Shown: positions 2 through 32,000, counted from the first letter of the stretch. The stretch is DNA of 32,000 nt from an archaeon (GCA_035390665.1 DAOOUC010000006.1:17688-49687), one strand, 5' to 3'. Notes: a model not told the origin generated them from the letters alone. Numbers and translations: made by a program.

Positions 2-613
2 ACAGGCACAATAACAGTAACTTCACCATCTAGTCAAACTGGCGGATTAGTAGGATATGCCGATGGTAATATCTCTAATTGTTATTCTACAGCAAATGTA
101 ATAGGGCAGGATTATGTCGGAGGATTAGTGGGTTACTATTATTTTAATACCATTTCGTCTAGTTATGCTACCGGAGATGTTAATGGAAAAAAATATGTAG
201 GTGGGTTTGCGGGCTATAATGATGGTTCAGATTCTGCTGCTGGTACTTTAAATATTTCTAATAGTTATTCTCTTGGAGATGTAACTAGAATTTCTGGTTT
301 AGATCAAAATATTGGAGGGTTTGTAGGATTTAATAAAAAAGGAGCAATTATAAATTCTTATTCTACGGGTTCAGTTTCAGGGAACAGTTGGACGCCAACA
401 GATAAAGGCTTTGTCGGGGCAATAACTACTGGTGGCAATTATGCAGACACAAATAATTTTTATGATACTACAATATCTTTACAAACTTCCACAGCAGGTA
501 ATGCTGTTGCAAAGACTACAGCACAAATGAAAACTCAAAGTACTTTCTCTGGATGGGATTTTTCAACAGTTTGGAATATTACAGAAGGAGTTACTTATCC
601 TTTCTTAAGATAA
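2..613 (+). CDS. GLUG-motif repeat surface protein, C-terminal fragment (5' end lies upstream of the window)
   Basis: The frame of ORF 128..613 stays open back to nt 2 (TGTITVTSPSSQTGGLVGYADGNISNCYSTANVIGQDYVGGLVGYYY...). It carries periodic repeats GG[LF][VA]G[YF]...I.N[SC]YS.G.V typical of the GLUG motif family. The C-terminus TAQMKTQSTFSGWDFSTVWNITEGVTYPFLR is typical of such adhesin-like proteins. Confidence 0.7.
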   Translation, partial: TGTITVTSPSSQTGGLVGYADGNISNCYSTANVIGQDYVGGLVGYYYFNTISSSYATGDVNGKKYVGGFAGYNDGSDSAAGTLNISNSYSLGDVTRISGLDQNIGGFVGFNKKGAIINSYSTGSVSGNSWTPTDKGFVGAITTGGNYADTNNFYDTTISLQTSTAGNAVAKTTAQMKTQSTFSGWDFSTVWNITEGVTYPFLR

Positions 614-666: not shown

Positions 667-679
667 CTAATCTATCTAT

Positions 680-751
680 GGGCTTCTAGTTCAATGGTAG
701 AATATCTCCTTCGCATGGAGAAGGTTGCGAGTTCGAGTCTCGCGAAGTCCA
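680..751 (+). tRNA. tRNA-Ala (anticodon CGC)
   Basis: Hand-folded cloverleaf: acceptor GGGCTTC/GAAGTCC with the G3:U70 alanine identity pair, D arm GTTC-AATGGTA-GAAT, anticodon arm TCTCC-TTCGCAT-GGAGA (CGC at 712-714), T arm GCGAG-TTCGAGT-CTCGC, discriminator A. No encoded CCA. Confidence 0.9.
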
Positions 752-885
752 TGAGAGCCGGTTTCGGTCGTGCTAAACAAATCGCATCTGTGATTTCTTG
801 GCATCCAGAAAACTTATAGTTTTCTTGAGCTCGCGCCCAATGGTGTCGGTTCGTGCGCAATGGATTTCGCGGTTATCCGCAATGA
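752..885 (+). ncRNA. Unassigned GC-rich segment, candidate structured RNA co-transcribed with tRNA-Ala(CGC)
   Basis: About 48% G+C by hand count over 134 nt, in a genome where only RNA genes reach this level. It abuts the tRNA 3' end with no AT-rich promoter in between. It contains a perfect 8-bp hairpin AGAAAACT-TAT-AGTTTTCT (807-825), GC hairpins (GCGG-TTAT-CCGC, 869-880) and a direct repeat CAATGG. The only ORF here (672..860, minus) overlaps the tRNA and is spurious. No family assigned. Confidence 0.25.
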
Positions 886-1032: not shown

Positions 1033-1078
1033 TTATATATATTAGTAATCAAGCAATTTTTGTTTTAAATTCTTAGAT

Positions 1079-1150
1079 GGGCTCCTGGCTCAATGGTAGA
1101 GTACTTCCCTTGCACGGAAGGGGTTGCGAGTTCGAGTCTCGCGGAGTCCA
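1079..1150 (+). tRNA. tRNA-Ala (anticodon UGC)
   Basis: Acceptor GGGCTCC/GGAGTCC with G3:U70, anticodon arm CTTCC-CTTGCAC-GGAAG (TGC at 1111-1113), T arm GCGAG-TTCGAGT-CTCGC, discriminator A. Confidence 0.9.
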
Positions 1151-1151
1151 T

Positions 1152-7141: not shown

Positions 7142-7268
7142 CCCTCCTTAGCATAGCGGTTAGTGCGTCCGGCTGTAGACTAAAAGATTACACTCTTTTT
7201 TTGATTGTGGCAATCCACATCAAAAGGCAGTGACCGGAAGATCCCCAGTCCAAATCTGGGAGGAGGGA
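7142..7268 (+). tRNA. tRNA-Tyr (anticodon GUA) with a 54-nt intron at 37/38 (intron about 7179-7232)
   Basis: Acceptor CCCTCCT/AGGAGGG with the archaeal/eukaryal C1:G72 Tyr identity pair and A73. D arm GCAT-AGCGGTTA-GTGC. Anticodon stem TCCGG/CCGGA with loop CTGTAG|...|A (GTA at 7175-7177). T arm CCCAG-TCCAAAT-CTGGG. The splice sites sit in two 3-nt bulges (AG|A and TG|A) separated by the 4-bp helix CTGT/GCAG, which is a bulge-helix-bulge motif. Confidence 0.9.
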
Positions 7269-18600: not shown

Positions 18601-19197
18601 GTGAAATATATGAGTAATAAAAACAATATAAAAAAAGAAAACAAATTTAAAATTAATAAAAAACAAGTGTTTTTTGTTGTTCTAATATTGTTATTAATGA
18701 TTTCTGTTTTTGCAATAGTAATCTCTAATAAATCAAAAGTTGTTACACCTACAGAAAATTTAGAAATGAATAATCAAATAATTACTGGAGAAAGCGATAT
18801 TACAGAAACACCAGAAATTAAAACAAACACAATTGGAGTGGATTCAAAACTAGAAGACTTCTATGGTAAACCTTCATTAATTGTTTTTGCAGGCACTTAT
18901 TGTGGACATTGTGTAAAGATGATTCCAGAACTTGAAAAAGAAATATGGAATAGATATAGACTAGAAGCAAATATTTGGGTAAATGTTATTGACGGTTCAA
19001 CAGGTAAAAGATTCGATGTTAAAGATATTGCACAAGGATATAATCCTAATTTAGAATATGATAAGATAATGGGCGATTGTTCTTATGTTCCAGCTTATGT
19101 TGTTCTTGATAAAGATGGCAAACAAATCTTAAGATCCTGTGGTTCTGAAAAAACAATTACAGAAATAAAGCAAGCAATTGATAGTCAATTAAACTAA
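18601..19197 (+). CDS. Membrane-anchored thioredoxin-fold thiol-disulfide oxidoreductase (TlpA/ResA-like)
   Basis: An N-terminal TM, then a thioredoxin-like domain with FAGTYCGHCVKM (CxxC). GTG at 18601 or ATG at 18610 as start. Confidence 0.7.
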   Translation: MKYMSNKNNIKKENKFKINKKQVFFVVLILLLMISVFAIVISNKSKVVTPTENLEMNNQIITGESDITETPEIKTNTIGVDSKLEDFYGKPSLIVFAGTYCGHCVKMIPELEKEIWNRYRLEANIWVNVIDGSTGKRFDVKDIAQGYNPNLEYDKIMGDCSYVPAYVVLDKDGKQILRSCGSEKTITEIKQAIDSQLN

Positions 19198-21109: not shown

Positions 21110-24100
21110 TTATTTTTTCTTAGAATAGATTAACATAAATCCAATTAATATTATGCTTATATACATTACAAACAGTATTTTATTTTCAGGAGTTAAAGGC
21201 ACATTTAGACCATTTCCACTAGCCCCGCCACTTCCTGAGCCTATATTAAATACATTGTTTCCAGGATTTCCTGTAACTTGCCCGTTTGGATTAACAGCAA
21301 AAGTTACCCCATCTTTAAATTGATCATTAAATGGAATTAAATTACCATTTGTTGTATACCAATTACCTGTTTCTGGATCATACCAAAAAGACCCGTTCTT
21401 TCCTTGAGCAGAAAGTAAGGTTTCTTTTTCTCCATTGTAAGTAACCTTTGGAACTCCCTCTTCAGCACTAAATCCAAATTCATGTGTTTTTCCATCATCA
21501 GTTTTAACAATTAAACCATTTGGTGTTTGTTGAACAGAGGTTATTTTTGTATCTGTTACTTCTCCTGTTACTTTATCAATAATCTTTAATCTTTGTTCAC
21601 ATTCTGGTGGGTCACTTACATAGAAAATAAATGTTTTTGTTTCAGTATCAAACATTTTAAATGGTCCGACTTTTTCAAATGCTTTGTTTAGTTTATCAGT
21701 ATTTGCTTTTGCTTGATCATTGTCTTTCTCAGGAGATACATTAAATTTTAATCCTATTTCTTCAGTATCATCACAACCATTTGTTGCTTTTTCTTTAATT
21801 AATTCTGTTTTTAATTTTTCAATGTCATTTCCATGTGTTGCCGTTGTTGTTTCTACCCACATGATATATGCCTTTCTTTCTTCAACATAAACTAATTGTC
21901 CTCTTTCAAATTGCAAAGCAACATTTTGTCCAATAGTTATTTCTCTAGTATCTACTGGACTAATAGATGTCATTCTATTTCCTAAAATTACTGCTTTAGC
22001 ATTACTTCCGTTAGTTATATATCTTGGTATTCCTTCGGCCATTATCTGTGTTCCTTGAGGTTTTAACATATAGTTTGTTGCAGGATGAATTGTATTCCCT
22101 AATTTTACAGCACCTAAATATTCTGTTAGATTTGCTGCATTAGATGGTATTGTAAGTCCTGTCTGTGCTTCATAACCTGCTCTTAGACAATCAAAGAAGT
22201 CTGCATTTTTTACAGACAGATTACCAAAGGTATCAATTTCAAATAATGGTTCTGTATTATTTGGAACAGGAATATAACTTAAACTTCTTGGAACAACTTT
22301 AGCAGGAATTGCAAGATTTGTTCCTATAATTCTCACAAAATCTTTATTTTCTTGTCCAATAATTGTTTTTAAATTTCCATTTGCATCAACTACAGTCATT
22401 TCTCCTTTTTCTTTATCGATTGTAAGAGTTATATTTGTGTCTTTATCTACTAGATTTTCAACACCTTTGTCATTATAACCAATAGCATTACACTTGGTTC
22501 TTGGACCCATCTCAAAGAAAAACATTTGTCCTATTATTGTGGAATCTGTTTGTCCACTTGTTCTATATGTTGCTTGAACAATAGGGTTTTCTTTTAGTTT
22601 TTGTTCTGCAAAATCCTTTATTTGTTCTGCACCAAACTTTACTCCTTTTTCTAATTCTGTACCTTCTGTTACTTTAGATACAGCTTCTTCAACTTTTGTG
22701 ACTCCGTCTTTTACTGCTTCACCAACTTTATTTTTTGAATCTTTTGTAACTCTTTCTGATTCTACAGACGAAACAAAGAAGTGTGCATATGTTCCTTCTT
22801 CGTCATCAACACAATTATGTAATTCAGGCATAATTAAAAACATTTGAGGAACATCACTTGCAAGTGCTGGTGCTAAAAATGAACTAAAATATCCTGATGC
22901 TGGAAATACTAAGTATGCTAAATGTTGTTGAGTAACTAAAGCACCCGCAAATCTATGATTTCTCATTGATTTAGGAACTGCTTTACCAATGGACATACCT
23001 GCTAAAGTTAATGATTCTATTTTTTGAGAACAAGTTTCTTCATTTTCTCTTGCAGCTAAAAGGTTAATTGCTTTATCTGTTGTTTGATTAGAAAAGGTTC
23101 CATCATAATCTGTATGATGTGAAAAAGTAATAATTGTTTGCCCTTGCTTCTTATAATTCTCTTCAGAAGTATTTTCTAAAATATAATTCAAAGTGTTAAT
23201 GCTTGGTGGAGTAGATGTTGTTATAGTTATTTGATTTAAAGAAATACTTGGTCGATAATTTTCTGTTTTTTTAGTTTCTGGAACAGTTGTTTCTTCTTTT
23301 GCTGTTTCTGCTTCTTTTGAAGTGCCATCCTCTGTAGTTTCTTCTTTTATTGTTTCTATAGGTGTTTCTTCTGTAACAATTGTTGGAAGCTCTGGCGAAT
23401 TTTCAACTTCTTTTTCTGCATCTGTTTTTTCTGGTTCAATCATTCCAACTTCCATTAACATAGAAGCATTTCTTGTTTCTTGATTAATATATTCTGCACC
23501 TACAACATAATTACATTGATCAATACATGCATTATCTAGATTATTAGTTACAAGAACAATATCGTCTGTTTTAGATCTTCTAATTTGGCCTTCAGTTACT
23601 TTCTTTAAAACATTATTTAAAGACTGTGCCCAATCTGCTGTAATTGTCCCTGTAATTTCTTTTGCTAAGTAATTAGACCAGTTAAGTCCTGAATTTAAAA
23701 ATTGCATAAAAAGATCTCCTTGATCTGATCCTTCATTTGCAAAGAAATCAACATACGCATCTTCATAAATTTTTTGAGTAGCTCCGTGTTTGATATGGAA
23801 AGCAGAATAACTTTCAGGTAATTGATACATAGAATATTTGGTTAATCCAAACGTATCTCCAAATAATGTTGCACCACCGGTTTTAAATTCCCAATATGCA
23901 AAATTAATTCCAAACGCCATTGGATTTTGAGTAAGTAATCTTTGATATGCAGCACCATTATATGTTCTCATAAACTGATTTAAAGTATCTCTTCCTCTTC
24001 CGCTCACCCATTCTTTATTACTCATTGTGGTAAAAACTTCATTGAAACTTTTTGCAGTATTATCAAACTTTGTTGGAACATTATCCATTACTTGTTTCAT

Positions 24101-26233
24101 TGTTTCAAGTGGATCTAAATCATAATATCCTTTACCATATACATCACTGATCTTTTTACCTGTTGCTTTATCAATATAATCATCAACAAATTGAGTTGTA
24201 GTTTTTGGATAAAAATCAATGTCTGTTGCAACACCAGTATATTTTGCTGGATCCCAATCAATTGATCTTATTTCTTTAAATGTTTTATCACTTACATCAA
24301 AATATCTTATATATCCATTTGGATAATTATCAACATAATTTTGTACATCAGATAATTTTACTTTCTTTACTACATTAGATGGATCTGGACCTTGAACAAC
24401 AGTTCTTATTCTTTTTGCAGAAATTGGGGTTCCATCAGCTAAAGTAACAGTAACATTTTGTGTTTGAAGACCTCCTGATCCTTTTATATCATAACCTGTT
24501 GCTGTTTTCTTATATCTAAAAGCATCAAAATCTTCTCCAAATGGTTTATTTTCTTGTATAAGTTTTCCTGTGGTGTGACCGTCTGTTGATTTATAAACAT
24601 TTAAGTTATCAAAATCACCATAAGTTCTTGCACTTACTACAGAAGAATCTTCATATCCGGATTTCCATTTAAATGTCTTAAATGTTGCAATATCATAAGA
24701 ATCTGCAAGTCTTGAAGCAGTATATGCTGCATCAGTATAGGCATCTAATTGTGCTTTTGTTAATTTCTTATATGCTTCAGTTATTGGCAATCCATCAGCA
24801 ACAACTTTATCAATAGTGTTCTTTGCTGCCAAAAAATCAGGAGTAATCATTTTAGATTTTAATAATGCATTAGCAGAATATACTCTGTCTCCAAAAATTT
24901 GAGCAACATCTGTTGCTGCTCTTCTTTGTGCTTTAGATAATTTATAACTATCATTAGCAATGCTTTTTAATGCAAAGCCAGAAGTCTCTCCCATACCTTT
25001 TTGAGTATTACCTAATAAATCTGTTGTGAATTCTTGTATATTATAATTCTGAATATCTCTTTTTGTTAGATTAGAAAGAGGTTCCATTTTCTGTGTAATA
25101 AATTTATCAACATCACTTTTTGCAAATCTTCCAGCATCTAATGATTTTTTTATTCTACCAAAAGGATCTTGAACAAACAACGCAGGATCTTTTGTTAAAG
25201 TATCTAAAAATCCACCCTCTTTAATTATTCCTTTCTTCTTTAAATAATCATAAGGTTTTGTTAATGTTTTTTTTATTGAAGGATGATTTGCAATTCTTGC
25301 CATTCCATTATAAATAAAAGGACTTGTTGCACTATAAACCATGTCTACAGAAAAATATTGATTAAACATCTTGTCAAATAAAGTATAGGTATTAATATAA
25401 CAGTTTTCTCCTCTACAAGTTGTTTGCATACTTACAGAAAAATTATTAGTTATTGTAGTGTTCTTTACTGCTTTATCTTTTGTAGCAGTCCATAATTCTG
25501 TATCTATTGCATTTTGATCATTTGATTCCATTGTACTTAAATATGTGTTTAGTTCAGTATTTGTAATATCAGAAAATGCACCTAAATTTTCAGTATATGA
25601 CTTATTTTCATCTTTATTACTATCAATATTAATTGTTTCTTTAATTGCTTGAATTGCATCTTTACCTACAACTCCAACTTCTTTAAAAAATCCGGTAATG
25701 TCATTTTTTCTATATTGTCCAACATCTGTTAAATAACATTGACTATCATTATCTTTTCCAGTACATCTTCCCACTCTTAATGTATCTTTTAAATTTAAAC
25801 CCATTTCATAAGGGCCATAACAAGACTGTCCTAATATTGTTGGTGTTTCTAATGGATTCATTAATTTTGATGGAATTTCTTGCTTTATTGCAAGATCTCC
25901 TGCTTTTGCATTAGGATCTGTAAGAAGAATATTATTTTGATCTAGTGTTTGCCTATTATTATTTGCGGCTTGATCAGACGTTATTTCATCTGCAGAAAAA
26001 CCTTTAGTTAATATCTCTTTCCATAAAGCATTAACTGAACTTTCTGGAAGTTCAACAGTTGCACAACCATTTCCACGATCAAAAATTTCTTTTTGTTCTT
26101 GTGGTTGTGAATCTGCAAAATAAAGTGTATCAGAATTATTTAATCTATCAAAATCAACACCAGATGCAAATATACTATTGCAAAAAAGTATTAAAAAGAA
26201 AATCATTATTGCGTTTTTTGTTTTTGAATTCAT
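21110..26233 (-). CDS. Giant (1707 aa) secreted, C-terminally membrane-anchored surface protein of unknown family
   Basis: An uninterrupted 5.1-kb ORF. Sec-type signal peptide MNSKTKNAIMIFFLILFCNSIFA|SG. A C-terminal Gly/Ser/Asn-rich linker (GSGSGGASGNG), then TM ILFVMYISIILIGFMLIY and KKK. A central Glu/Thr/Pro-rich linker. Many N-x-S/T sequons. No catalytic or known adhesin motif recognised. Confidence 0.8.
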   Translation of the reverse strand: MNSKTKNAIMIFFLILFCNSIFASGVDFDRLNNSDTLYFADSQPQEQKEIFDRGNGCATVELPESSVNALWKEILTKGFSADEITSDQAANNNRQTLDQNNILLTDPNAKAGDLAIKQEIPSKLMNPLETPTILGQSCYGPYEMGLNLKDTLRVGRCTGKDNDSQCYLTDVGQYRKNDITGFFKEVGVVGKDAIQAIKETINIDSNKDENKSYTENLGAFSDITNTELNTYLSTMESNDQNAIDTELWTATKDKAVKNTTITNNFSVSMQTTCRGENCYINTYTLFDKMFNQYFSVDMVYSATSPFIYNGMARIANHPSIKKTLTKPYDYLKKKGIIKEGGFLDTLTKDPALFVQDPFGRIKKSLDAGRFAKSDVDKFITQKMEPLSNLTKRDIQNYNIQEFTTDLLGNTQKGMGETSGFALKSIANDSYKLSKAQRRAATDVAQIFGDRVYSANALLKSKMITPDFLAAKNTIDKVVADGLPITEAYKKLTKAQLDAYTDAAYTASRLADSYDIATFKTFKWKSGYEDSSVVSARTYGDFDNLNVYKSTDGHTTGKLIQENKPFGEDFDAFRYKKTATGYDIKGSGGLQTQNVTVTLADGTPISAKRIRTVVQGPDPSNVVKKVKLSDVQNYVDNYPNGYIRYFDVSDKTFKEIRSIDWDPAKYTGVATDIDFYPKTTTQFVDDYIDKATGKKISDVYGKGYYDLDPLETMKQVMDNVPTKFDNTAKSFNEVFTTMSNKEWVSGRGRDTLNQFMRTYNGAAYQRLLTQNPMAFGINFAYWEFKTGGATLFGDTFGLTKYSMYQLPESYSAFHIKHGATQKIYEDAYVDFFANEGSDQGDLFMQFLNSGLNWSNYLAKEITGTITADWAQSLNNVLKKVTEGQIRRSKTDDIVLVTNNLDNACIDQCNYVVGAEYINQETRNASMLMEVGMIEPEKTDAEKEVENSPELPTIVTEETPIETIKEETTEDGTSKEAETAKEETTVPETKKTENYRPSISLNQITITTSTPPSINTLNYILENTSEENYKKQGQTIITFSHHTDYDGTFSNQTTDKAINLLAARENEETCSQKIESLTLAGMSIGKAVPKSMRNHRFAGALVTQQHLAYLVFPASGYFSSFLAPALASDVPQMFLIMPELHNCVDDEEGTYAHFFVSSVESERVTKDSKNKVGEAVKDGVTKVEEAVSKVTEGTELEKGVKFGAEQIKDFAEQKLKENPIVQATYRTSGQTDSTIIGQMFFFEMGPRTKCNAIGYNDKGVENLVDKDTNITLTIDKEKGEMTVVDANGNLKTIIGQENKDFVRIIGTNLAIPAKVVPRSLSYIPVPNNTEPLFEIDTFGNLSVKNADFFDCLRAGYEAQTGLTIPSNAANLTEYLGAVKLGNTIHPATNYMLKPQGTQIMAEGIPRYITNGSNAKAVILGNRMTSISPVDTREITIGQNVALQFERGQLVYVEERKAYIMWVETTTATHGNDIEKLKTELIKEKATNGCDDTEEIGLKFNVSPEKDNDQAKANTDKLNKAFEKVGPFKMFDTETKTFIFYVSDPPECEQRLKIIDKVTGEVTDTKITSVQQTPNGLIVKTDDGKTHEFGFSAEEGVPKVTYNGEKETLLSAQGKNGSFWYDPETGNWYTTNGNLIPFNDQFKDGVTFAVNPNGQVTGNPGNNVFNIGSGSGGASGNGLNVPLTPENKILFVMYISIILIGFMLIYSKKK

Positions 26234-26244
26234 TTATTTCACTT

Positions 26245-26769
26245 TTACATATATATTAAATATAAAATTATAACAGGTAATTTGGGGAAAACAAGTAATA
26301 CAAATGCAATTATTACAAATAAAACAAATGTAAAACTTTTCCAAAGATTAAAGAAAGACAATCCTTGTTCTTTTTTCTTTTTTATTTTTGTTTTCTTGGA
26401 TTTAGTTAAATTATCATAAATCAAAGAAATGAACATTCCTATAATTAAGACTATTGCAGAGAATAATGCAGAAATAATAATTAATCTAGCTAAATGGAAT
26501 AAAATAAAACCAATAGCATCTAAAAATGTAAATTCTGAAAATTTACTTAATATTGGGATAAAATATAAAAATATTAAAATAACATAATTTAGGATAAAAA
26601 CACACAAAAACAAGGACAATACAAAATTATATTTTTTATTAAACCTTAAAAATAAACCCTTAAAAGCATAAGTTACGCCAATAAATGGCAAAGAGATTAT
26701 TGCTGAAAATAAAAATAATTTAATAAAAACCCAAACATAATTTAATATTGTTGCAAAAAATCCTGCCAT
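26245..26769 (-). CDS. Polytopic membrane protein, co-oriented 11 nt upstream of the giant surface-protein gene
   Basis: 174 aa with about 5 TM segments and a KSKKTKIKKKKEQG loop. The 11-nt gap to the next start implies co-transcription. Confidence 0.6.
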   Translation of the reverse strand: MAGFFATILNYVWVFIKLFLFSAIISLPFIGVTYAFKGLFLRFNKKYNFVLSLFLCVFILNYVILIFLYFIPILSKFSEFTFLDAIGFILFHLARLIIISALFSAIVLIIGMFISLIYDNLTKSKKTKIKKKKEQGLSFFNLWKSFTFVLFVIIAFVLLVFPKLPVIILYLIYM

Positions 26770-26863
26770 TTTATCACTTTTTAATTCTAAAATATAATAT
26801 ATATATTAACATTATATTTTTAAATATTATATACTACTACATTTATGTAAGAAAGTGAAAAAT

Positions 26864-27574
26864 ATGGACGTAGATTTAAAAAATATCAAAAGAAGAGAAC
26901 GAAGATTCTATAGAACCTATAATGATAATGGGGAAATTAAATATGTTGATAAACAAACAAAAACCCCAGAATCAGTAACTGTACAAAAATCAGAAGATAT
27001 TAAAATTAAACAAACAGAAGAAAAGAGTAAGGAAATTAATACTCAAGACAAAAAAGAAATAATAGATAAGATACTTTTCGAAATGAATAAAAGCATAAAT
27101 CCTAATATTGATGAAATTTCGGAAGTCATTTATTCTCAATTAACTAATAATAATATTGAGGTTAGTCAAGAAACAGTAAAACATGTAGTTGAAGAAAATG
27201 CTCATGTGAGAAGATCAAGAAGACAAGAAGACAAGGCCGAATCAAAAGAAGGTTTTGATTATTTAAATGATAGAAAAGAAATGGAACTTGTTTTAGATAA
27301 TATTGTAGAAGAAAATATAAAAGAACAAACAAGAGAAAAAAATAAACCTAAAATTGAAAAACCTGTTATTGAGAAAAAAACAGAAACTCATTCTAGAAGA
27401 GATAAAAAACCTGAAGAAAAAACAAAAGTTGAAGAGAAACCTGAAAAGAAAAAAGAAGATACTTCTAAAACAAAAACCAAAGTCAAAAAAGAAGAAGAAT
27501 TTAAATTAGATTTTGGAGATGAAGATTCTGAAGTAGATGATCAATCAGATGACGATTTAGGACTTAAATTTTAA
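26864..27574 (+). CDS. Highly charged Lys/Glu-rich protein with an acidic C-terminal tail
   Basis: ATG at 26864 (the ORF track extends to GTG 26855). No TM segment. Low-complexity KPEEKTKVEEKPEKKKED, ending in DEDSEVDDQSDDDLGLKF. Its stop overlaps the stop of the convergent gene within TTAA (27571-27574). Confidence 0.55.
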   Translation: MDVDLKNIKRRERRFYRTYNDNGEIKYVDKQTKTPESVTVQKSEDIKIKQTEEKSKEINTQDKKEIIDKILFEMNKSINPNIDEISEVIYSQLTNNNIEVSQETVKHVVEENAHVRRSRRQEDKAESKEGFDYLNDRKEMELVLDNIVEENIKEQTREKNKPKIEKPVIEKKTETHSRRDKKPEEKTKVEEKPEKKKEDTSKTKTKVKKEEEFKLDFGDEDSEVDDQSDDDLGLKF

Positions 27575-28350
27575 TTAGTTACTTCTTCACAATTTAATAA
27601 ATCTAAATCATCTGGATTTATATCTGTTGTTGCTGGCCAGATTGCAAATGTTGCAATTGTTAAAAATTCTCTTTGTTCTGAAGCAGAGGATGTATATTTT
27701 ATAAAACTTAAAGGAACAGATGAAGAAAAAATTGTCGGAGATTTAGAAATTATTGATCTAACTTGTGAATATCCACCTTCTGGATCACAAAGATAATAAG
27801 TTTCTGGTTCATATGGATTTACAGAACAACTCATTGTTTTTGTCGGACCAGAAATACTTGTACATTGAAAATTTGTTAACTTAATCATAAAATAAAAAAA
27901 AGTATCATTATTCTGTGTTTGATCATAAAGATAAAATACATAATCGTGAGACTTTAAAGGATACATTGTTGCTTTCACTGTGTGGAATAAATTATATTTA
28001 GCAATATCATTATAGGTTGTTCCTAAAGTATTTATGTCTGTTGATCCAATTTTTCCATCAGCATAAAAATCCTGTTTTATTTGAGTCATTAAATAATCCG
28101 TTTCTCTTGCTTGACGAATATCTAAATTAAAATCTAAAGGAACAGATGTATAAAAGATTGTTCTTAATACTGAGTTTGTGTAATCTTTAAAATAAAGATC
28201 ATTTGATGCTTTTTCAATTCTTGTTCCGTATGTTGATGAATATCTAAATAACAATACAGATAAAGTTACAATTATTAATAAGAAAAATAAAGCATCTGTA
28301 ATTGCGGCTTGGCCTTTTTTACTTTTTAATTTATTTCCAAATTGTAACAT
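27571..28350 (-). CDS. Pilin-like secreted protein with class III signal peptide (259 aa)
   Basis: N-terminus MLQFGNKLKSKKG|QAAITDALFFLLIIVTLSVLLF: a basic leader, KG then Q, and a hydrophobic helix. Cys-containing globular domain. The start overlaps the upstream gene by 20 nt. Confidence 0.7.
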   Translation of the reverse strand: MLQFGNKLKSKKGQAAITDALFFLLIIVTLSVLLFRYSSTYGTRIEKASNDLYFKDYTNSVLRTIFYTSVPLDFNLDIRQARETDYLMTQIKQDFYADGKIGSTDINTLGTTYNDIAKYNLFHTVKATMYPLKSHDYVFYLYDQTQNNDTFFYFMIKLTNFQCTSISGPTKTMSCSVNPYEPETYYLCDPEGGYSQVRSIISKSPTIFSSSVPLSFIKYTSSASEQREFLTIATFAIWPATTDINPDDLDLLNCEEVTN

Positions 28351-28834
28351 ATAACCACGCTGGCTCTACATAATATTCTTGTTGAACTGTAATAGGATAT
28401 CTATAAACAATAACTTCTTTTGTCATTAATACTGATGTTAAAGTATCAATATCTGTATTTCCACAGAAGAAAACCTTATCTGGACTTTCCCAATGTATTA
28501 TTAATGCATCTTCTGTAATGTCATTTACCTCAAAAACGTCATAATTTTCGGTGTTTAAATCTAAGGGCAAAGCAAAAGCTGTCCAATTGTATTTTGTATC
28601 CACTTTTGTACAGGTTTTAGAAAATGCATTATAGTCTGAAAATAATGGATCTTCTTTTATTATTCCAGAAATATTTATTGCATCATTTTTTAAAGAATAA
28701 TAATCTGTATTATTTCTATAAACATTATATGTACTTAAAAATACAGAAAAAAATATAGTTATACCTAAAAATATTGGAATTAAACTAGGGAGATCATCTC
28801 CTATTGCTCCTATATATCCTTTTTTATTTAACAT
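28331..28834 (-). CDS. Pilin-like protein (167 aa), divergent class III signal peptide
   Basis: MLNKKG|YIGAIGDDLPSLIPIFLGITIFFSVFL. In an operon with the flanking pilin-like genes. Confidence 0.55.
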   Translation of the reverse strand: MLNKKGYIGAIGDDLPSLIPIFLGITIFFSVFLSTYNVYRNNTDYYSLKNDAINISGIIKEDPLFSDYNAFSKTCTKVDTKYNWTAFALPLDLNTENYDVFEVNDITEDALIIHWESPDKVFFCGNTDIDTLTSVLMTKEVIVYRYPITVQQEYYVEPAWLYVTIWK

Positions 28835-28838
28835 ATTA

Positions 28839-29528
28839 TCAACTTATGGGTATAGTGTTTGGCTCTACAAACAAATCAGGAATTGCATTTAGACAAAGTA
28901 TTTTTTGTTTTAAATCTTCTTCGACTAAGAAATTCTTACATTGATAAATTCCATTTTTCTTTAAACATGGAATTAAATAAATATTGGGAATTCCATTTTC
29001 TATTTTTTTAATAAATAAAATAGTTGTATCAATTGAACTTGCTTTTAATGGATCATAATTTACAGAAAAATTGGTATCATTTAATTTTATTTCACAACCG
29101 GTATTATTTGTACAATCAGATTCATAAAAATAAACATTTCCATTATAATCTATATCATAAGCAGCATAAATTTTTGGTTTGTATGATTTTCTATCAATTA
29201 TTGCTAACACTATTTTTTTTTGTTCGCTTCCTATGTCTGTATTAGTAGTAAAATTATGAGCTGAAACATTTAATTTATAATTTATACTAAATGCATCTGA
29301 TCCACCTGAGTTAGTATAAATCTTTTTAGGAATATCAATAAATTTTACTGTACAATAGCTATTACTTTCTATTCCAACTTTTAATTCTTTCCCGATTTTA
29401 TAAACTAATTCATAGCTTTGTCTTATTTTCATATTTGAATTTACTGCGCCCATAAAGAAAACAACAATTGCTGCAACAGCAGTAACAAAAATTAAAAGAT
29501 TTAATTTAGATAGAGCAAATTCAATCAT
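28839..29528 (-). CDS. N-terminally anchored Cys-rich extracellular protein (229 aa), pilin-operon member
   Basis: MIEFALSKLNLLIFVTAVAAIVVFFMGAV has a hydrophobic helix but no KG leader. Six or more Cys in the globular part. It lies 2 nt from the upstream gene. Confidence 0.55.
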   Translation of the reverse strand: MIEFALSKLNLLIFVTAVAAIVVFFMGAVNSNMKIRQSYELVYKIGKELKVGIESNSYCTVKFIDIPKKIYTNSGGSDAFSINYKLNVSAHNFTTNTDIGSEQKKIVLAIIDRKSYKPKIYAAYDIDYNGNVYFYESDCTNNTGCEIKLNDTNFSVNYDPLKASSIDTTILFIKKIENGIPNIYLIPCLKKNGIYQCKNFLVEEDLKQKILCLNAIPDLFVEPNTIPIS

Positions 29529-29530
29529 AA

Positions 29531-30130
29531 TTATATCCTATTTTTCTTTAAAAAACACATTTTACGGGACGCACCATAATCTTGTGAAGATCCAATCATA
29601 TATAATCTGTATTTTCCAGAAGTTATATTTGTTGAGATATTTGTGTCTGAAACTAAAGACCAATTTTCATATTCTGAATCTGTACTTATTATACAATTAT
29701 CTTTATATGTTTCATACTCTATGGCTGTTGGTAATTCAACACACAATGGTTGTATTGGCATATTTCTAGTTTTGCCATCATCATAAACATATTCTAGAAG
29801 AGTACATGTTTGTCCACCACCACAAAAAGCAGCACATCTTGTTGGACTTGCATATGTTTTAAGTGTTATTTTTTCAAACTTTTGATTAAAGCAAGGTCTT
29901 ACATCAAAACTAAGATTTTTTACTGTTAAATCAGAACCTAAAACTACATCTTTGATTGCTTCTTTAAACTCACTTAGTTCTTGTCTTTTATCTCCGATAC
30001 AAGTATTTTCAGAAAGATTAGTTAAAGCCCAAGTTCCTGCAACAATAACAAAACCCATAAGTATAACAGCGACTAAAACTTCAAAAGGAGCACTAGCTTG
30101 GCCTTTATTATTCATGCTAAATATATTCAT
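29531..30130 (-). CDS. Pilin-like secreted protein with class III signal peptide (199 aa), Cys-rich
   Basis: MNIFSMNNKG|QASAPFEVLVAVILMGFVIVAG. About 10 Cys (NTCIG, RPCF, TRCAAFCGGGQTC, PLCVE, NCII, KMCF). Confidence 0.7.
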   Translation of the reverse strand: MNIFSMNNKGQASAPFEVLVAVILMGFVIVAGTWALTNLSENTCIGDKRQELSEFKEAIKDVVLGSDLTVKNLSFDVRPCFNQKFEKITLKTYASPTRCAAFCGGGQTCTLLEYVYDDGKTRNMPIQPLCVELPTAIEYETYKDNCIISTDSEYENWSLVSDTNISTNITSGKYRLYMIGSSQDYGASRKMCFLKKNRI

Positions 30131-30175
30131 ATTAGAAGAAATAATAGAAAAAGAATTTAAAAAGGAATTGTTTTT

Positions 30176-30418
30176 TTATTGTGTAGAAGTTGTTGGAGTA
30201 TTTGCTACCGTATTATTATTTGTAGCAACTCCTTGATTAGGAAGACTAGCAACATTTTGTTGATACTTCATAGACTTGTTAAACATAGGTTTAATTAAAG
30301 CAATAAGGACTATGCCCACTATTGCAACAATAATAAGCATATATAGAGTAGAAGCCCCATCTGCTTGAGCCCTATTATCCCTTAAAAGTTTTTTAAACTC
30401 TTGCTTTAATTTATTCAT
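30176..30418 (-). CDS. Small pilin-like protein (80 aa), candidate major fibre subunit
   Basis: A basic leader ...LLRDNRA|QADGASTLYMLIIVAIVGIVLIALI, then a short Asn/Thr-rich tail (ATNNNTVANTPTTSTQ). The size and layout resemble small archaeal major pilins (UPF0333/MMP1685-like). Tentative. Confidence 0.5.
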   Translation of the reverse strand: MNKLKQEFKKLLRDNRAQADGASTLYMLIIVAIVGIVLIALIKPMFNKSMKYQQNVASLPNQGVATNNNTVANTPTTSTQ

Positions 30419-30430
30419 AGTTTTTCAAAT

Positions 30431-30976
30431 TTATGCTGATTTTTTTGCATAGATTAAACATAATGTTTCGTCTGTTATCTCTGATTTAGATGAAATGTCT
30501 ATATTACTAATTCTTTGATATGAATTATTTGAAGCATATGTTTCTTTTATAGTTTCTAATCCAGAATATCCTTCTTCAGAACAAACAATACAAACAGCAA
30601 TTCTTTTATCAGATGCGCCTGTATATGTAAGTATTGAATTACCTATTACTTGAAAATTCTCTACATTATCATATTCATTGCTTACTAATACCTGATATTG
30701 ACTTAAACCCGTATTCTTGACCATTGCTTCTGCACCAATAGATGTAGATCTTTTGAATTTGATTGCATCTGTACAATTAATTACACCTGGATAATTTAAT
30801 TGATTTTTTAATAAATTATTAGTTACTTGATCTGGTTTATCTGTACCAATATCTAATCCACCAATAACAGATATTAAAACTCCAAGTATTGCTAAAGCAA
30901 CAATTGCAGCAATTAATAACTGAAATGTTGAGGATGCTTGTCCTTTCTTATTTAATTTAAACATTTTTCTTTTCAC
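30431..30976 (-). CDS. Pilin-like secreted protein with class III signal peptide (181 aa), 4-Cys domain; paralog of 31045..31890
   Basis: MKRKMFKLNKKG|QASSTFQLLIAAIVALAILGVLISV. Its C-terminal domain shares NYPGV.NCTD, FKR, KNTGL, YTG, VCI.CS and ETLCL.Y.KK with the next gene. Confidence 0.75.
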   Translation of the reverse strand: MKRKMFKLNKKGQASSTFQLLIAAIVALAILGVLISVIGGLDIGTDKPDQVTNNLLKNQLNYPGVINCTDAIKFKRSTSIGAEAMVKNTGLSQYQVLVSNEYDNVENFQVIGNSILTYTGASDKRIAVCIVCSEEGYSGLETIKETYASNNSYQRISNIDISSKSEITDETLCLIYAKKSA

Positions 30977-31044
30977 CTTTTCTATTTTTTATAAATATTA
31001 TATATAACAAAAATATATTACCATAATATATTTAAAGCTTATCT

Positions 31045-31890
31045 TTATGCTTTCTTTGGATAAACTAAACACAAGGTTTCTCGTTCTATATTTGAATCAA
31101 TAACCGTAGTTATTCCATATTCCTCCATTGCTTGCTGTAATCCGGTTTTTCCATTATCTGAACAAATAATACATACTTCCACATTCTTGTTTGAAGATCC
31201 CGTATATTTTAATATTTGTGAATTGGTTGATTCAAATCCTATCAAATTATCTAGATTATTTAAATATACTTGTGTGTTATCCAGCCCAGTATTTTTAATA
31301 ATGCTTTCTGCTATTAGAGAACTATTTCTTTTAAAAGTTACTTTGTCTGTACAATTTTCTACACCTGGATAATTAATTTGTTGTCTTAATAATTGTGCAG
31401 TATATACTGTCGGATTTTGACTACGTCTACTTGGTGCAGGCAATTGAGCTGAAATAATAAATAAAAGTAATAAACATGCTGTAATTATTAAAGATAAATT
31501 TACTTTGTGTTTATATACTCTTACTGATTTATTTTCTAACTTTTGTTCTAAGTCTTTATTGAATAAAGCAATAAATTCATAAATTACAGAAATAAATAGA
31601 ATTACTATAGCAAATAAAATACATATGCTTCCAAGATAAAAAACAAAAGGAACTAAATCATTTAATCCATTTGGAATATTAATTCCAAGAATCAATATAA
31701 TAAGAAATAATATTGGTAGACTTGCCATTATTAAAATTCCAATTATAATTTTAGTATTATATTTGTTATACTCTTCTTGAGATTCTTTAGGATCTTCTTT
31801 TTCTTCAGTTTTAGATATATTATTTTGTTTTTCAATAACAGAATCTAAATATTCTTCATCTTCTTTTTTTTGATCCTTCATTTTTTTCAC
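31045..31890 (-). CDS. Membrane-anchored paralog of the 4-Cys pilin domain (281 aa), with a charged N-terminus plus 3 TM instead of a class III signal peptide
   Basis: The C-terminal ~130 aa are homologous to 30431..30976 and include an identical 15-nt stretch (31360-31374 = 30782-30796, encoding NYPGV). The N-terminus has an acidic ~45 aa followed by three hydrophobic helices. Confidence 0.7.
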   Translation of the reverse strand: MKKMKDQKKEDEEYLDSVIEKQNNISKTEEKEDPKESQEEYNKYNTKIIIGILIMASLPILFLIILILGINIPNGLNDLVPFVFYLGSICILFAIVILFISVIYEFIALFNKDLEQKLENKSVRVYKHKVNLSLIITACLLLLFIISAQLPAPSRRSQNPTVYTAQLLRQQINYPGVENCTDKVTFKRNSSLIAESIIKNTGLDNTQVYLNNLDNLIGFESTNSQILKYTGSSNKNVEVCIICSDNGKTGLQQAMEEYGITTVIDSNIERETLCLVYPKKA

Positions 31891-31922: not shown

Positions 31923-32000
31923 CTAATATCCACCAATTATTAACAAAATTAAAATCACAAAGATAATTGAAAATATCAATTTAAACCAAATATTTGAAAT
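31923..32000 (-). CDS. 3' end of an upstream minus-strand gene (hydrophobic C-terminus; rest outside the window)
   Basis: The reverse strand reads ISNIWFKLIFSIIFVILILLIIGGY* in an open frame from the window edge to the stop at 31923-31925. It is co-oriented with the pilin operon, 32 nt upstream of it. Confidence 0.35.
   Translation of the reverse strand: MSNIWFKLIFSIIFVILILLIIGGY

What the first reader, a model, noticed from the sequence alone, without database searches (positions are those of the whole stretch)
27571..31890. Seven-gene operon of cysteine-rich proteins with class III (archaeal type IV pilin) signal peptides
Four products start with a short basic leader ending in KG followed by QA and a ~20-aa hydrophobic helix or close variants (KKG|QASSTFQLLIAAIV..., NKG|QASAPFEVLVAV..., KKG|QAAITDALFFLL..., KKG|YIGAIG...). 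A fifth, 80-aa protein has RA|QADGASTLYMLIIVAIV... and a short Asn/Thr-rich tail, like small archaeal major pilins. Gene spacing is -20 to +70 nt, which is consistent with one transcript. The globular parts are unrelated to anything I recognise and are unusually Cys-rich (4 to about 10 Cys each), implying disulfide-stabilised extracellular domains. That would fit the TlpA-like oxidoreductase at 18601-19197. No ATPase, platform protein or peptidase lies inside the window.
Basis: partly seen in the sequence, partly recalled or inferred. Interest (0 to 1): 0.75.

Follow-up and report, generated by a model that had tools for sequence, protein, structure and literature searches.

The report
Pilin operon of a DPANN archaeon
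This is the subunit-gene block of a type IV pilus-like surface filament system in a tiny uncultured archaeon (Iainarchaeota/Diapherotrites); it is an expected kind of machine, but its proteins belong to no described family and it is always encoded next to a giant surface protein.

Summary
The seven minus-strand ORFs are real and tightly spaced (gaps 68, 12, 45, 2, 4 and -20 nt). Four of them (G2, G3, G4, G7) carry a [KR][GA]|Q cleavage-type motif followed by a hydrophobic helix. No other ORF of at least 60 aa in the window does. G6 has the variant KG|Y. G5 starts directly with the helix. G1 is a three-TM, uncleavable paralog of G2.

None of the seven matches Pfam, NCBIfam or PDB sequences. In 56 species-level relatives, all Iainarchaeota/Diapherotrites, the order G4-G5-G6-G7 is nearly invariant. 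In the relatives the block is preceded by a FlaI/TadA-type ATPase and a T2SSF/TadC platform protein. It is followed by a 1,500-1,760 aa surface protein.

AlphaFold models of G4 and G7 show a 49-57 residue N-terminal helix followed by a beta-rich head, but Foldseek finds no PDB match. Each family has an even number of invariant cysteines.

The pilin reading is supported. The likely system is an Epd/Tad-like filament with the 80-aa G3 as a candidate major subunit. The ATPase, platform and prepilin peptidase are not in the window, and the peptidase was not found anywhere. I rate it a new member of a known kind, of moderate interest.

The parts
31923..32000 (-). 3' end of a hydrophobic ORF that runs off the window edge (...FKLIFSIIFVILILLIIGGY*). 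It occupies the position of the small membrane protein 'M168', which lies between the P180 pilin-like gene and G1 in syntenic relatives.
   Evidence: Translation; gene order TadC > P180 > M168 > G1 in L005, L007 and L012-L026. Its identity as an M168 ortholog is inferred from position only.
31045..31890 (-). G1, 281 aa. It has a K/E-rich N-terminus, three TM segments and a C-terminal 4-Cys domain paralogous to the head of G2. It lacks a KG|Q site, so it is probably a permanently membrane-anchored derivative of a pilin.
   Evidence: TM windows at about 44-80, 75-114 and 127-154. hhalign of G1 against G2 gives E = 6e-38. This form is found only in the window's subclade. The start may be the ATG three codons downstream; the exact 281-aa product is not on record.
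30431..30976 (-). G2, 181 aa. Prepilin-like, with MKRKMFKLNKKG|QASSTFQLLIAAIVALAILGVLISVIGG followed by a 4-Cys head. It is a paralog of P180, which lies upstream outside the window, and of G1.
   Evidence: P180 against G2, E = 3e-18.
30176..30418 (-). G3, 80 aa. A small pilin without a globular head: leader ...RDNRA|QADGASTLYMLIIVAIVGIVLIALIKPMF, then a short Asn/Thr/Pro-rich tail. It is the candidate major subunit, of the EpdE/Flp type.
   Evidence: Alignment of 38 orthologs of about 49-80 aa with conserved [KR][AG]Q...Y[ML]L...KPMF. No Cys. Small major pilins of about 70 aa without a head are described for Epd/clade 1 systems (PMC4858521; preprint).
29531..30130 (-). G4, 199 aa. Prepilin-like, with MNIFSMNNKG|QASAPFEVLVAVILMGFVIVAG followed by a beta-rich head with 8 invariant Cys.
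   Evidence: all 8 Cys invariant. AF2 pLDDT 80.3, helix 16-64 followed by 8 strands. JGI names 'PulG' and 'UPF0333' for homologs.
28839..29528 (-). G5, 229 aa. Its N-terminal hydrophobic helix starts at residue 1 (MIEFALSKLNLLIF...) with no leader. The head carries 4 conserved Cys. It is probably a bitopic, uncleaved pilin-like component.
   Evidence: Residue 3 varies among E, G, L and D in orthologs, so there is no conserved cleavage site.
28331..28834 (-). G6, 167 aa. MLNKKG|YIGAIGDDLPSLIPIFLGITIFF, with the nearly invariant signature G[YF][IL]G[PA]IGDD[LI]PSL[IV]P and 2 conserved Cys.
   Evidence: Y at +1 lies outside the FlaFind pattern, so cleavage is uncertain.
27571..28350 (-). G7, 259 aa. 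Prepilin-like, with MLQFGNKLKSKKG|QAAITDALFFLLIIVTLSVLLF followed by an alpha/beta head with 2 invariant Cys (C188, C254). Its start overlaps the end of G6 by 20 nt.
   Evidence: Q14, A15, A16, D19 and L21-L24 invariant in 35 sequences. AF2 pLDDT 87.7, helix 11-67.
26855..27574 (+). R239, a convergent K/E-rich 239-aa protein whose 3' end overlaps the 3' end of G7 by 4 nt. It is a conserved neighbour of unknown role.
   Evidence: Present in this position in 29 of 67 loci.
26245..26769 (-). M174, a 174-aa polytopic membrane protein, conserved between the pilin block and the giant protein.
   Evidence: Found in 36 of 67 loci. It has no GxGD motif and is not peptidase-like.
21110..26233 (-). GIANT, 1707 aa. 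It has a Sec-type signal peptide, no recognisable domain, and a C-terminal ...NVPLTPE + TM helix + KKK. It is a conserved downstream partner of the pilin block, probably an S-layer-like protein or adhesin processed by an archaeosortase.
   Evidence: Found downstream of G7 in 53 of 67 loci. The C-terminal motif [FL]N[ILV]P[SL][LT]PE + TM + basic tail is present in 38 orthologs and in no real gene elsewhere in the loci. No Pfam, NCBIfam or PDB hit.

Best explanation
The region encodes the subunit module of a type IV filament (T4P-like, Epd/Tad-like) system of an Iainarchaeota (Diapherotrites, DPANN) archaeon.

Proposed mechanism:
1. G2, G3, G4, G7, probably G6, and P180 just outside the window are made as prepilins. 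They insert into the membrane through their N-terminal hydrophobic helix.
2. A class III signal peptidase cuts them after [KR][GA], which leaves Gln at position +1.
3. A FlaI/TadA-family ATPase and a TadC-like platform extract them from the membrane and polymerise them. In relatives both genes lie next to the operon. In this genome the platform gene most probably lies just past the window edge and the ATPase elsewhere.
4. The headless 80-aa G3 is the best candidate for the bulk subunit, like EpdE or Flp.
5. G2/P180, G4, G6 and G7 carry disulfide-stabilised heads and are minor or tip/base pilins.
6. G1 and G5 stay in the membrane as uncleaved pilin-like partners.
7. The invariant G4-G5-G6-G7 core is co-inherited with a giant, probably archaeosortase-anchored surface protein. 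The filament either passes through it or presents it.

Shown here: the ORFs, the motifs, their conservation, the synteny with ATPase and platform genes, and the predicted helix-plus-head architecture. Inferred: cleavage, polymerisation, the assignment of major versus minor pilins, the disulfides, and the link to the giant protein.
For: - ORFs and spacing.
- The strict class III-type motif occurs in 4 of 50 window ORFs, all of them in the operon.
- Family consensus N-termini are conserved over 22-61 orthologs: kGQaFSvFkLLI for G2, kgQesAPFElLvAVI for G4, kGQAA.TDALFfL for G7, [KR][AG]Q..Y[ML]L..KPMF for G3.
- Synteny in 67 loci (the window, 56 GTDB species-level loci, and 10 metagenome places, some of them near-duplicates) follows ArtX< ATPase> TadC> P180> G2> G3> G4> G5> G6> G7> (R239<) M174> GIANT>. 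G4-G7 are present in 64-67 loci, TadC in 31 and the ATPase in 13.
- TadC identity: 301 homologs, and those at 42-45% identity carry PF00482 and the NCBI name 'type II secretion system F family protein'. The L009 copy scores 27.0 bits against a cutoff of 25.2.
- ATPase identity: PF00437 at 1.8e-16, FlaI at 1.6e-38, TadA at 4e-36. The best PDB relatives are an archaeal secretion ATPase deposited as 'Type II secretion system protein' (2OAP), CpaF and FlaI.
- AF2 models: G7 has pLDDT 87.7 with helix 11-67, and G4 has pLDDT 80.3 with helix 16-64, each followed by a sheet-rich domain.
- Each family has an even number of invariant Cys, and the operon is 2.4-fold enriched in Cys.
- JGI names 'PulG' and 'UPF0333' for G4 homologs.
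- Literature: DPANN T4P islands with unrecognisable pilins (PMC6393860); Epd/clade 1 systems with major pilins of about 70 aa, at least 5 minor pilins and extra membrane proteins (PMC4858521); headless Epd pilins and System 1 in DPANN (10.64898/2026.04.22.720090).
Against: - No ATPase, platform or peptidase lies in the window.
- In the window's own subclade the ATPase is not adjacent to the locus, except in L026.
- No A24-like (multi-TM, GxGD) ORF lies within 10 kb of any of the 67 loci, so cleavage is unproven.
- No member hits Pfam Class_IIIsignal (PF04021) or any pilin family at significance. Only 8 of 139 orthologs give sub-threshold Flp_Fap hits, the best at E = 0.0095.
- Foldseek against PDB gives nothing for G4 or G7 (best E 0.16 and 0.03, TM below 0.25). 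The 'pilin fold' therefore rests on secondary-structure architecture only.
- G1, G5 and possibly G6 do not fit the cleavage rule.
- The choice of G3 as major pilin rests on analogy. G3 was not detected in a distant clade (L033-L060) that still keeps G4-G7.
Confidence: 0.8

Rival explanations
1. The pilin-like proteins do not build a long adhesive pilus. They form a short pseudopilus or envelope-spanning scaffold whose job is to insert, anchor or locally open the giant S-layer-like protein. This would be analogous to FlaF/FlaG contacting the S-layer in the archaellum, or to T2SS pseudopili.
For: The G4-G7 core is co-inherited with GIANT in 53 of 67 loci over deep divergence (G7 identity down to 23-28%), whereas other flanking genes change. 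GIANT carries an archaeosortase-type C-terminal signal, and an archaeosortase-family gene sits next to the ATPase in 8 loci. G1 and G5 look permanently membrane-anchored. The literature proposes that S-layer-like proteins in TFF loci prime the envelope for filament passage (preprint).
Against: A headless EpdE/Flp-like subunit (G3) is typical of real filaments. GIANT has its own Sec signal and membrane anchor, so it needs no pilus machine for export. This rival overlaps the best explanation rather than excluding it.
Confidence: 0.12
2. This is a bindosome-like arrangement. [quoted passage not shown]
For: Several different globular heads share one type of signal. Class III signals on substrate-binding proteins are widespread in archaea (preprint abstract). 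The L009 ATPase also matches the BasE model weakly, at 6e-19.
Against: No head matches any solute-binding or other known domain. No ABC transporter genes are linked. The FlaI and TadA models score far better than BasE. The fixed order of four single-copy core genes looks structural rather than like a variable set of binding proteins.
Confidence: 0.04
3. The proteins are ordinary signal-anchored or secreted membrane proteins. The KG|Q motif is not a peptidase site and the resemblance to pilins is superficial.
For: No pilin family hit. No PDB fold match. No peptidase found.
Against: The motif is nearly invariant in five unrelated or distantly related families across a whole phylum. The genes sit directly downstream of ATPase and TadC genes in relatives. 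The N-terminal helices of about 50 residues are far longer than a TM anchor.
Confidence: 0.03
4. The genes form an archaellum (motility) operon.
For: The ATPase gives its best NCBIfam hit to the FlaI model.
Against: That score is 132.7 bits against a cutoff of 550. No FlaH, FlaF/G, FlaC/D/E/X or archaellin family hits were found anywhere in the loci. The subunits are unlike archaellins.
Confidence: 0.01

Closest known systems
Epd pilus of Methanococcus maripaludis (archaeal T4P clade 1 / 'System 1'; EppA-dependent pilins)
   Same: - Gln at +1 after a [KR]G cleavage site. The Q+1 specificity of EppA substrates is from my own recollection of Szabo et al. 2007 and was not checked here.
- A very small major pilin without a globular head (EpdE, arCOG06620; about 70 aa), compared with G3 at 49-80 aa.
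- Five or more additional pilin-like genes in one operon, plus extra small membrane proteins.
- System 1 is reported in DPANN (PMC4858521; preprint).
   Different: - The Epd system has two platform genes. Here there is one long TadC of about 760-790 aa with only one detectable T2SSF domain.
- No EppA gene lies in or near the locus.
- There is no sequence similarity to Class_IIIsignal/DUF361.
- The heads are Cys-rich.
- The locus is obligatorily linked to a giant protein with an archaeosortase-type C-terminus.
Bacterial Tad/Flp pilus
   Same: Among the best-scoring relatives of the ATPase are TadA/CpaF. The platform is TadC-like. The candidate major subunit is a headless helix of about 50-60 aa. 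Eight of 139 orthologs give weak Flp_Fap hits.
   Different: The Flp_Fap hits are sub-threshold (best E 0.0095), and I could not identify which families they come from. The G|xxxxEY Flp motif is absent. There are no RcpA/TadD-type outer-membrane parts. The host is an archaeon.
DPANN 'dark matter' T4P islands (Makarova, Wolf and Koonin 2019, PMC6393860, Fig. 2A)
   Same: That paper makes exactly this type of prediction. In DPANN loci that contain a secretion ATPase (FlaI-type; printed 'FliI' in the paper), TadC and specific surface proteins, the unrecognisable small proteins with signal peptides are inferred to be pilins.
   Different: The paper gives a generic statement for some DPANN genomes. 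I could not check whether this Iainarchaeota locus or these families are the ones shown, because the figure is not held.
Bacterial T4aP minor-pilin operon with PilY1 (fimU-pilVWXY1E) and the T2SS GspH-I-J-K tip complex
   Same: This is an analogy only. A fixed set of four different minor pilin-like genes in conserved order is encoded next to a very large surface or adhesin protein.
   Different: No sequence or fold similarity was detected. GIANT has its own Sec signal and C-terminal membrane anchor, unlike PilY1.
Archaeal TFF loci with S-layer-like proteins (PilA-based euryarchaeal systems; archaellum loci of Thermococcales and Methanococcales)
   Same: A large secreted S-layer-like protein is encoded within a T4P locus (PMC4858521; preprint).
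   Different: GIANT has no detectable Ig-like or S-layer domain. It carries a distinct PxxPE + TM + basic C-terminus.

Membership tests
Archaeal type IV pilins / class III signal peptide proteins | A short basic leader ending in [KRDE][GA], followed at once by a hydrophobic stretch of about 20 aa (FlaFind rule) | tested here: met
   My re-implementation of the FlaFind pattern matches G2, G3, G4 and G7. G6 (KG|Y) falls just outside it. G1 and G5 fail. The real FlaFind and SignalP 6 programs were not available.
Archaeal type IV pilins / class III signal peptide proteins | Encoded with, or assembled by, a FlaI/PilB-family ATPase and a FlaJ/TadC/PilC platform | tested here: met
   Not in the window. 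In relatives, TadC is adjacent in 31 loci and the ATPase in 13 of 67 syntenic loci.
Archaeal type IV pilins / class III signal peptide proteins | Cleavage by an A24-family prepilin peptidase (PibD/FlaK/EppA) | not testable with these tools
   No candidate in the window or within 10 kb of any locus. Whole genomes could not be scanned.
Archaeal type IV pilins / class III signal peptide proteins | 'Lollipop' architecture: an N-terminal alpha-helix of about 50 residues plus a beta-rich head | tested here: inconclusive
Archaeal type IV pilins / class III signal peptide proteins | Polymerisation into a filament | not testable with these tools
   This needs multimer modelling, EM or biochemistry.
Pfam PF04021 Class_IIIsignal (DUF361/UPF0333, QxSxExxxL) | A significant match to the family profile | tested here: not met
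   No hit at E <= 1 for the window proteins, and the family is not among those matched by 139 orthologs. G4 has Q1, S3 and L9 but E at +7. One homolog is labelled UPF0333 by JGI.
Epd / System 1 archaeal pilus | A small, headless major pilin | tested here: met
   G3 family members are 49-80 aa, consisting of leader, helix and a short tail. There is no sequence match to a known EpdE, which was not available for comparison.
Epd / System 1 archaeal pilus | Two platform genes and a dedicated EppA peptidase in the locus | tested here: not met
   There is a single long TadC upstream. A second, convergent TadC occurs downstream in only some loci. No peptidase was found.
Pfam PF04964 Flp_Fap | A significant match to the profile and the G|xxxxEY motif | tested here: not met
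   Eight of 139 orthologs hit with a best E of 0.0095, below the cutoff. Ten G3 orthologs tested individually gave no Flp_Fap hit.
Archaellum | FlaH plus FlaF/G plus archaellins of the FlaA/B family, with FlaI above the equivalog cutoff | tested here: not met
   FlaI model scores 132.7 bits against a cutoff of 550. No other archaellum family was detected.

The most novel reading that the evidence does not exclude
The invariant four-gene core G4-G5-G6-G7 forms a dedicated minor-pilin complex that couples a T4P-type machine to the giant, archaeosortase-anchored surface protein. This would be functionally like the bacterial PilVWX-FimU/PilY1 tip complex, but it would have evolved independently. 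Together they would form a phylum-specific attachment organelle of Iainarchaeota that links two surface-biogenesis systems, class III signal peptidase/T4P and archaeosortase, not previously known to cooperate.
Probability: 0.2. Interest if true: 0.7.

Novelty: new member of a known kind. Interest (0 to 1): 0.45.

Why it matters
DPANN archaea are mostly uncultured, and many live attached to other cells. Their surface appendages are the likely contact devices, yet their subunits are annotated as hypothetical proteins.

This work does four things:
- It assigns seven 'hypothetical' proteins in the window to a type IV filament locus conserved across a phylum. An eighth family, P180, lies just outside the window.
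- It proposes a candidate major pilin and a four-protein core.
- It shows that the heads are probably disulfide-bonded.
- It flags a probable new archaeosortase sorting signal on the co-inherited giant protein.

These results supply concrete targets for annotation (new family models), for cryo-ET and proteomics on enrichment cultures, and for asking how Iainarchaeota attach. They do not overturn anything known about type IV filaments.

Tried and rejected
- Family scans. Pfam and NCBIfam scans of all seven proteins and their neighbours gave no meaningful hit. The LRRC37AB_C and DUF2207_C hits of G1 are low-complexity or TM noise.
- PDB sequence searches. Profiles of G4 and G7, and the GIANT and TadC sequences, found nothing.
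- Upstream extension of the window. The exact 281-aa G1 product is not on record. All contigs carrying the identical G4 end near the same place, so the platform gene of this very organism could not be read.
- TadC. Neither hhalign of the N-half against the C-half nor Pfam on four C-terminal halves found a second T2SSF domain or an internal repeat.
- Prepilin peptidase. A regex plus TM filter over all 5,174 ORFs of the 67 loci found none, and two literature searches gave no help.
- M174 and M168 as cryptic peptidases. Rejected, because they have no GxGD or paired-Asp signature.
- The thioredoxin-like gene as a functional partner. Rejected as unsupported, because it is linked in only the 4 closest relatives, like the aspartyl/lysyl-tRNA synthetase-family gene (labelled AspRS in my scripts), whose linkage holds only within the window's subclade.
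- G5 cleaved at 'MLG|F'. Rejected, because residue 3 is not conserved.
- Flp_Fap membership of G3. Not supported.
- The sigma-70 promoter and terminator scanner was not used, because the organism is an archaeon with 25% GC, where TATA-like strings are everywhere.

Full report
**Organism and setting**

The window has about 25% G+C. It carries an intron-containing tRNA that Rfam finds and bacterial-mode ARAGORN misses. Its proteins have their closest relatives in MAGs named 'Candidatus Diapherotrites' or 'Candidatus Iainarchaeum'. It therefore comes from a DPANN archaeon of the phylum Iainarchaeota. Contigs with identical genes exist in two NCBI metagenome assemblies and two ENA assemblies, but all of them break near the upstream edge of the operon.

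**The observation**

All seven ORFs exist on the minus strand at the stated coordinates. The gaps between them are 68, 12, 45, 2, 4 and -20 nt. This is consistent with one transcript, although transcription was not tested.

| Gene | N-terminus | Feature |
|---|---|---|
| G2 | KKG\|QASSTFQLLIAAIV | [KR][GA]\|Q then a strongly hydrophobic stretch |
| G3 | NRA\|QADGASTLYMLIIV | same |
| G4 | NKG\|QASAPFEVLVAV | same |
| G7 | KKG\|QAAITDALFFLL | same |
| G6 | KKG\|YIGAIGDDLPSLIP | variant, Y at +1 |
| G5 | MIEFALSKLNLLIF | begins directly with the helix, no leader |
| G1 | charged N-terminus | three TM segments, no cleavage-type motif |

Only 4 of the 50 window ORFs of at least 60 aa pass a strict [KR][GA]Q-plus-hydrophobic test, and all four are in this operon.

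The operon is still Cys-enriched at 2.15%, against 0.88% for the other 26 genes of the window (p = 1e-4).

**No known family**

None of the seven hits Pfam or NCBIfam meaningfully. Profiles of G4 and G7 find nothing among PDB sequences. A G4 profile finds only 206 clusters (E <= 0.001) among 1.84 billion representative proteins. Distant members of that set also lack Pfam domains. These are narrow, unannotated families.

**Context decides the case**

Homologs of G7 (55 clusters) led to long contigs. In close relatives (L005, L007) the genes upstream of the G1 homolog are, in order:
- a 740-760 aa polytopic protein;
- a 180-aa protein with KG|DDSASEAYRLLIGF (P180);
- a small membrane protein (M168).

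The large protein has 301 homologs. Those at 42-45% identity carry PF00482 (T2SSF), and NCBI names them 'type II secretion system F family protein'. The L009 copy passes the Pfam cutoff with 27.0 bits against 25.2.

In more distant relatives (L009, L010) a protein of about 760 aa with PF00437 (T2SSE) sits directly upstream of the platform gene. It matches the NCBIfam FlaI model at 1.6e-38 and the TadA model at 4e-36. Its best PDB relatives are an archaeal secretion ATPase deposited as 'Type II secretion system protein' (2OAP), CpaF and FlaI.

A genome-collection scan with the G7 alignment returned 56 species-level loci. They include two closed genomes, CP045477.1 and CP064981.1. Local HMM labelling of the ORFs in all 67 loci gave one recurring order:

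ArtX< ATPase> TadC> P180> G2> G3> G4> G5> G6> G7> (R239<) M174> GIANT>.

G4-G7 are present in 64-67 loci, GIANT in 53, TadC in 31 and the ATPase in 13. Some of the 67 are near-duplicates of the window or of each other (L001-L004, L006, L008, L015).

The window's subclade has lost the adjacent ATPase. It gained M168 and the TM-anchored G1. A hydrophobic ORF end at 31923-32000 sits where M168 is expected. The platform gene of this organism therefore most probably lies just beyond the window.

**Conservation of the signals**

| Family | Consensus N-terminus | Invariant or near-invariant Cys |
|---|---|---|
| P180 | kGQafe.frLLI | 4 |
| G2 | kGQaFSvFkLLIaA | 2 invariant, up to 5 conserved positions |
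| G3 | [KR][AG]Q.e...Y[ML]L...KPMF | 0 |
| G4 | kgQesAPFElLvAVI | 8 |
| G5 | M.eF.LSK.NlLIf | 4 |
| G6 | kGyiGpIGDDlPSLIP | 2 |
| G7 | kGQAA.TDALFfL | 2 |

In G7, Q14, A15, A16, D19 and L21-L24 are invariant in 35 sequences and K12/G13 nearly so. In G4, Q11 and all eight Cys are invariant in 39 sequences.

One shared boundary of basic residue, small residue and Gln across otherwise unrelated proteins is what a single dedicated signal peptidase would impose. Even numbers of invariant Cys fit extracellular disulfides, but that is inference.

hhalign shows that P180, G1 and G2 are paralogs (E from 1e-12 to 1e-38). G4 shares only the N-terminal 60-75 residues with them. G5, G6 and G7 are unrelated to one another.

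**Structure**

The AlphaFold model of G7 (35-sequence alignment) has pLDDT 87.7. It shows a helix spanning residues 11-67 followed by an alpha/beta domain. The model of G4 (39 sequences) has pLDDT 80.3. It shows a helix spanning 16-64 followed by eight strands. A helix of about 50 residues is far longer than a membrane anchor and is the hallmark of type IV pilins.

**Which known system it resembles**

G3 orthologs are 49-80 aa and consist of a leader, one helix ending in KPMF and a short tail. They have no head domain. Makarova et al. 2016 describe clade 1 (Epd) systems as having small major pilins of about 70 aa, at least five minor pilins per locus, a dedicated EppA peptidase and extra membrane proteins (PMC4858521). 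Sivabalasarma and Albers 2026 note that the Epd major pilin lacks the globular domain, like bacterial Tad/Flp pilins, and that System 1 occurs in DPANN (10.64898/2026.04.22.720090). Makarova et al. 2019 state that in DPANN T4P islands the unrecognisable signal-peptide proteins next to the secretion ATPase, TadC and surface proteins are probably pilins (PMC6393860).

The present locus matches that plan. It differs in four ways:
- It has one long TadC with a single detectable T2SSF domain.
- It has no peptidase gene nearby.
- Its heads are Cys-rich.
- It is strictly coupled to GIANT.

No ortholog reaches significance for Class_IIIsignal or Flp_Fap. Eight of 139 orthologs give sub-threshold Flp_Fap hits, and I could not attribute them to a family. 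I therefore file the locus as working like an Epd/Tad-type filament, without claiming membership of the Epd system.

**The giant neighbour**

GIANT (21110-26233, 1707 aa) has a Sec-type signal peptide and no recognisable domain. Its C-terminus reads [FL]N[ILV]P[SL][LT]PE, then a TM helix, then a basic tail. This pattern is conserved in 38 orthologs. Elsewhere in the loci it appears only in spurious antisense ORFs.

That three-part layout is typical of exosortase and archaeosortase substrates (my own knowledge of Haft et al. 2012). In 8 distant loci an archaeosortase-family gene lies next to the ATPase; it scores 47.5 bits on TIGR04178 against a cutoff of 23.

The aspartyl/lysyl-tRNA synthetase-family gene and the thioredoxin-like gene are linked to the locus only within the window's own subclade. 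GIANT, by contrast, stays linked across the phylum, which argues for a functional tie. It may be the S-layer-like protein that the filament must cross, or an adhesin that the filament presents. This remains open.

**Verdict**

What is there is the pilin module of a phylum-wide Iainarchaeota type IV filament locus. It is a new set of families within a known kind of machine.

Three steps are unproven: cleavage (no peptidase found), polymerisation, and the assignment of G3 as major pilin. The suggested link to the thioredoxin-like gene is not supported by synteny. That protein does have an N-terminal anchor and a CGHC motif, which would suit an extracytoplasmic oxidoreductase.

Noticed in passing
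window 21110-26233 (-), especially the last ~50 codons (about 21110-21260): The 1707-aa giant surface protein ends in ...NVPLTPE + TM helix + KKK. The pattern [FL]N[ILV]P[SL][LT]PE + TM + basic tail is conserved in 38 orthologs and matches no NCBIfam CTERM sorting model. An unclassified archaeosortase-family gene is linked to the locus in 8 distant relatives. This is a candidate new archaeosortase/sorting-signal pair.
   Followed up: partly
window 679-752, 923-995, 1078-1151 (+): Three tandem tRNA-Ala genes have anticodons CGC, AGC and UGC. The middle one has the anticodon loop C-U-A-G-C-A-C, which puts A at position 34. That is unusual for an archaeon, where GGC is expected and A34 tRNAs are normally absent (my own knowledge).
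   Followed up: no
window 7142-7268 (+): A 127-nt tRNA, with anticodon GUA (Tyr) by eye, carries a long intron. Rfam detects it and bacterial-mode ARAGORN does not. It supports an archaeal origin.
   Followed up: partly
window 18601-19197 (+): A thioredoxin-fold protein has an N-terminal membrane anchor and a CGHC (PDI-like) active-site motif. It is a plausible extracytoplasmic disulfide oxidoreductase, but it is syntenic with the pilin locus only in the 4 closest relatives.
   Followed up: yes
window 26855-27574 (+): A K/E-rich 239-aa protein is convergent with the operon, and its 3' end overlaps the 3' end of G7 by 4 nt. It is conserved in this position in 29 loci. In L009 a zinc-ribbon/RING-like protein occupies the equivalent position instead. 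Its function is unknown.
   Followed up: partly
L033-L060 (for example L041:6971-7243, L043:5914-6186): In a distant Iainarchaeota clade G2 and G3 are not detected upstream of G4. A protein of about 90 aa (MGTVAEFFRG.VKSTKI.AQKVG|AF.M.VFVLG...) lies there instead, and ATPase/TadC genes lie convergently downstream of GIANT. It may be an alternative small pilin.
   Followed up: no
L012 (four G1/G2-type copies); L016 (three copies): The P180/G1/G2 family expands by tandem duplication in some genomes, as reported for archaeal major pilin families.
   Followed up: no
window 128-613 (+): A protein containing a GLUG motif (PF07581, 8e-7) lies at the window start, next to the tRNA-Ala cluster. It is probably part of a surface or adhesin-like protein.
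   Followed up: no
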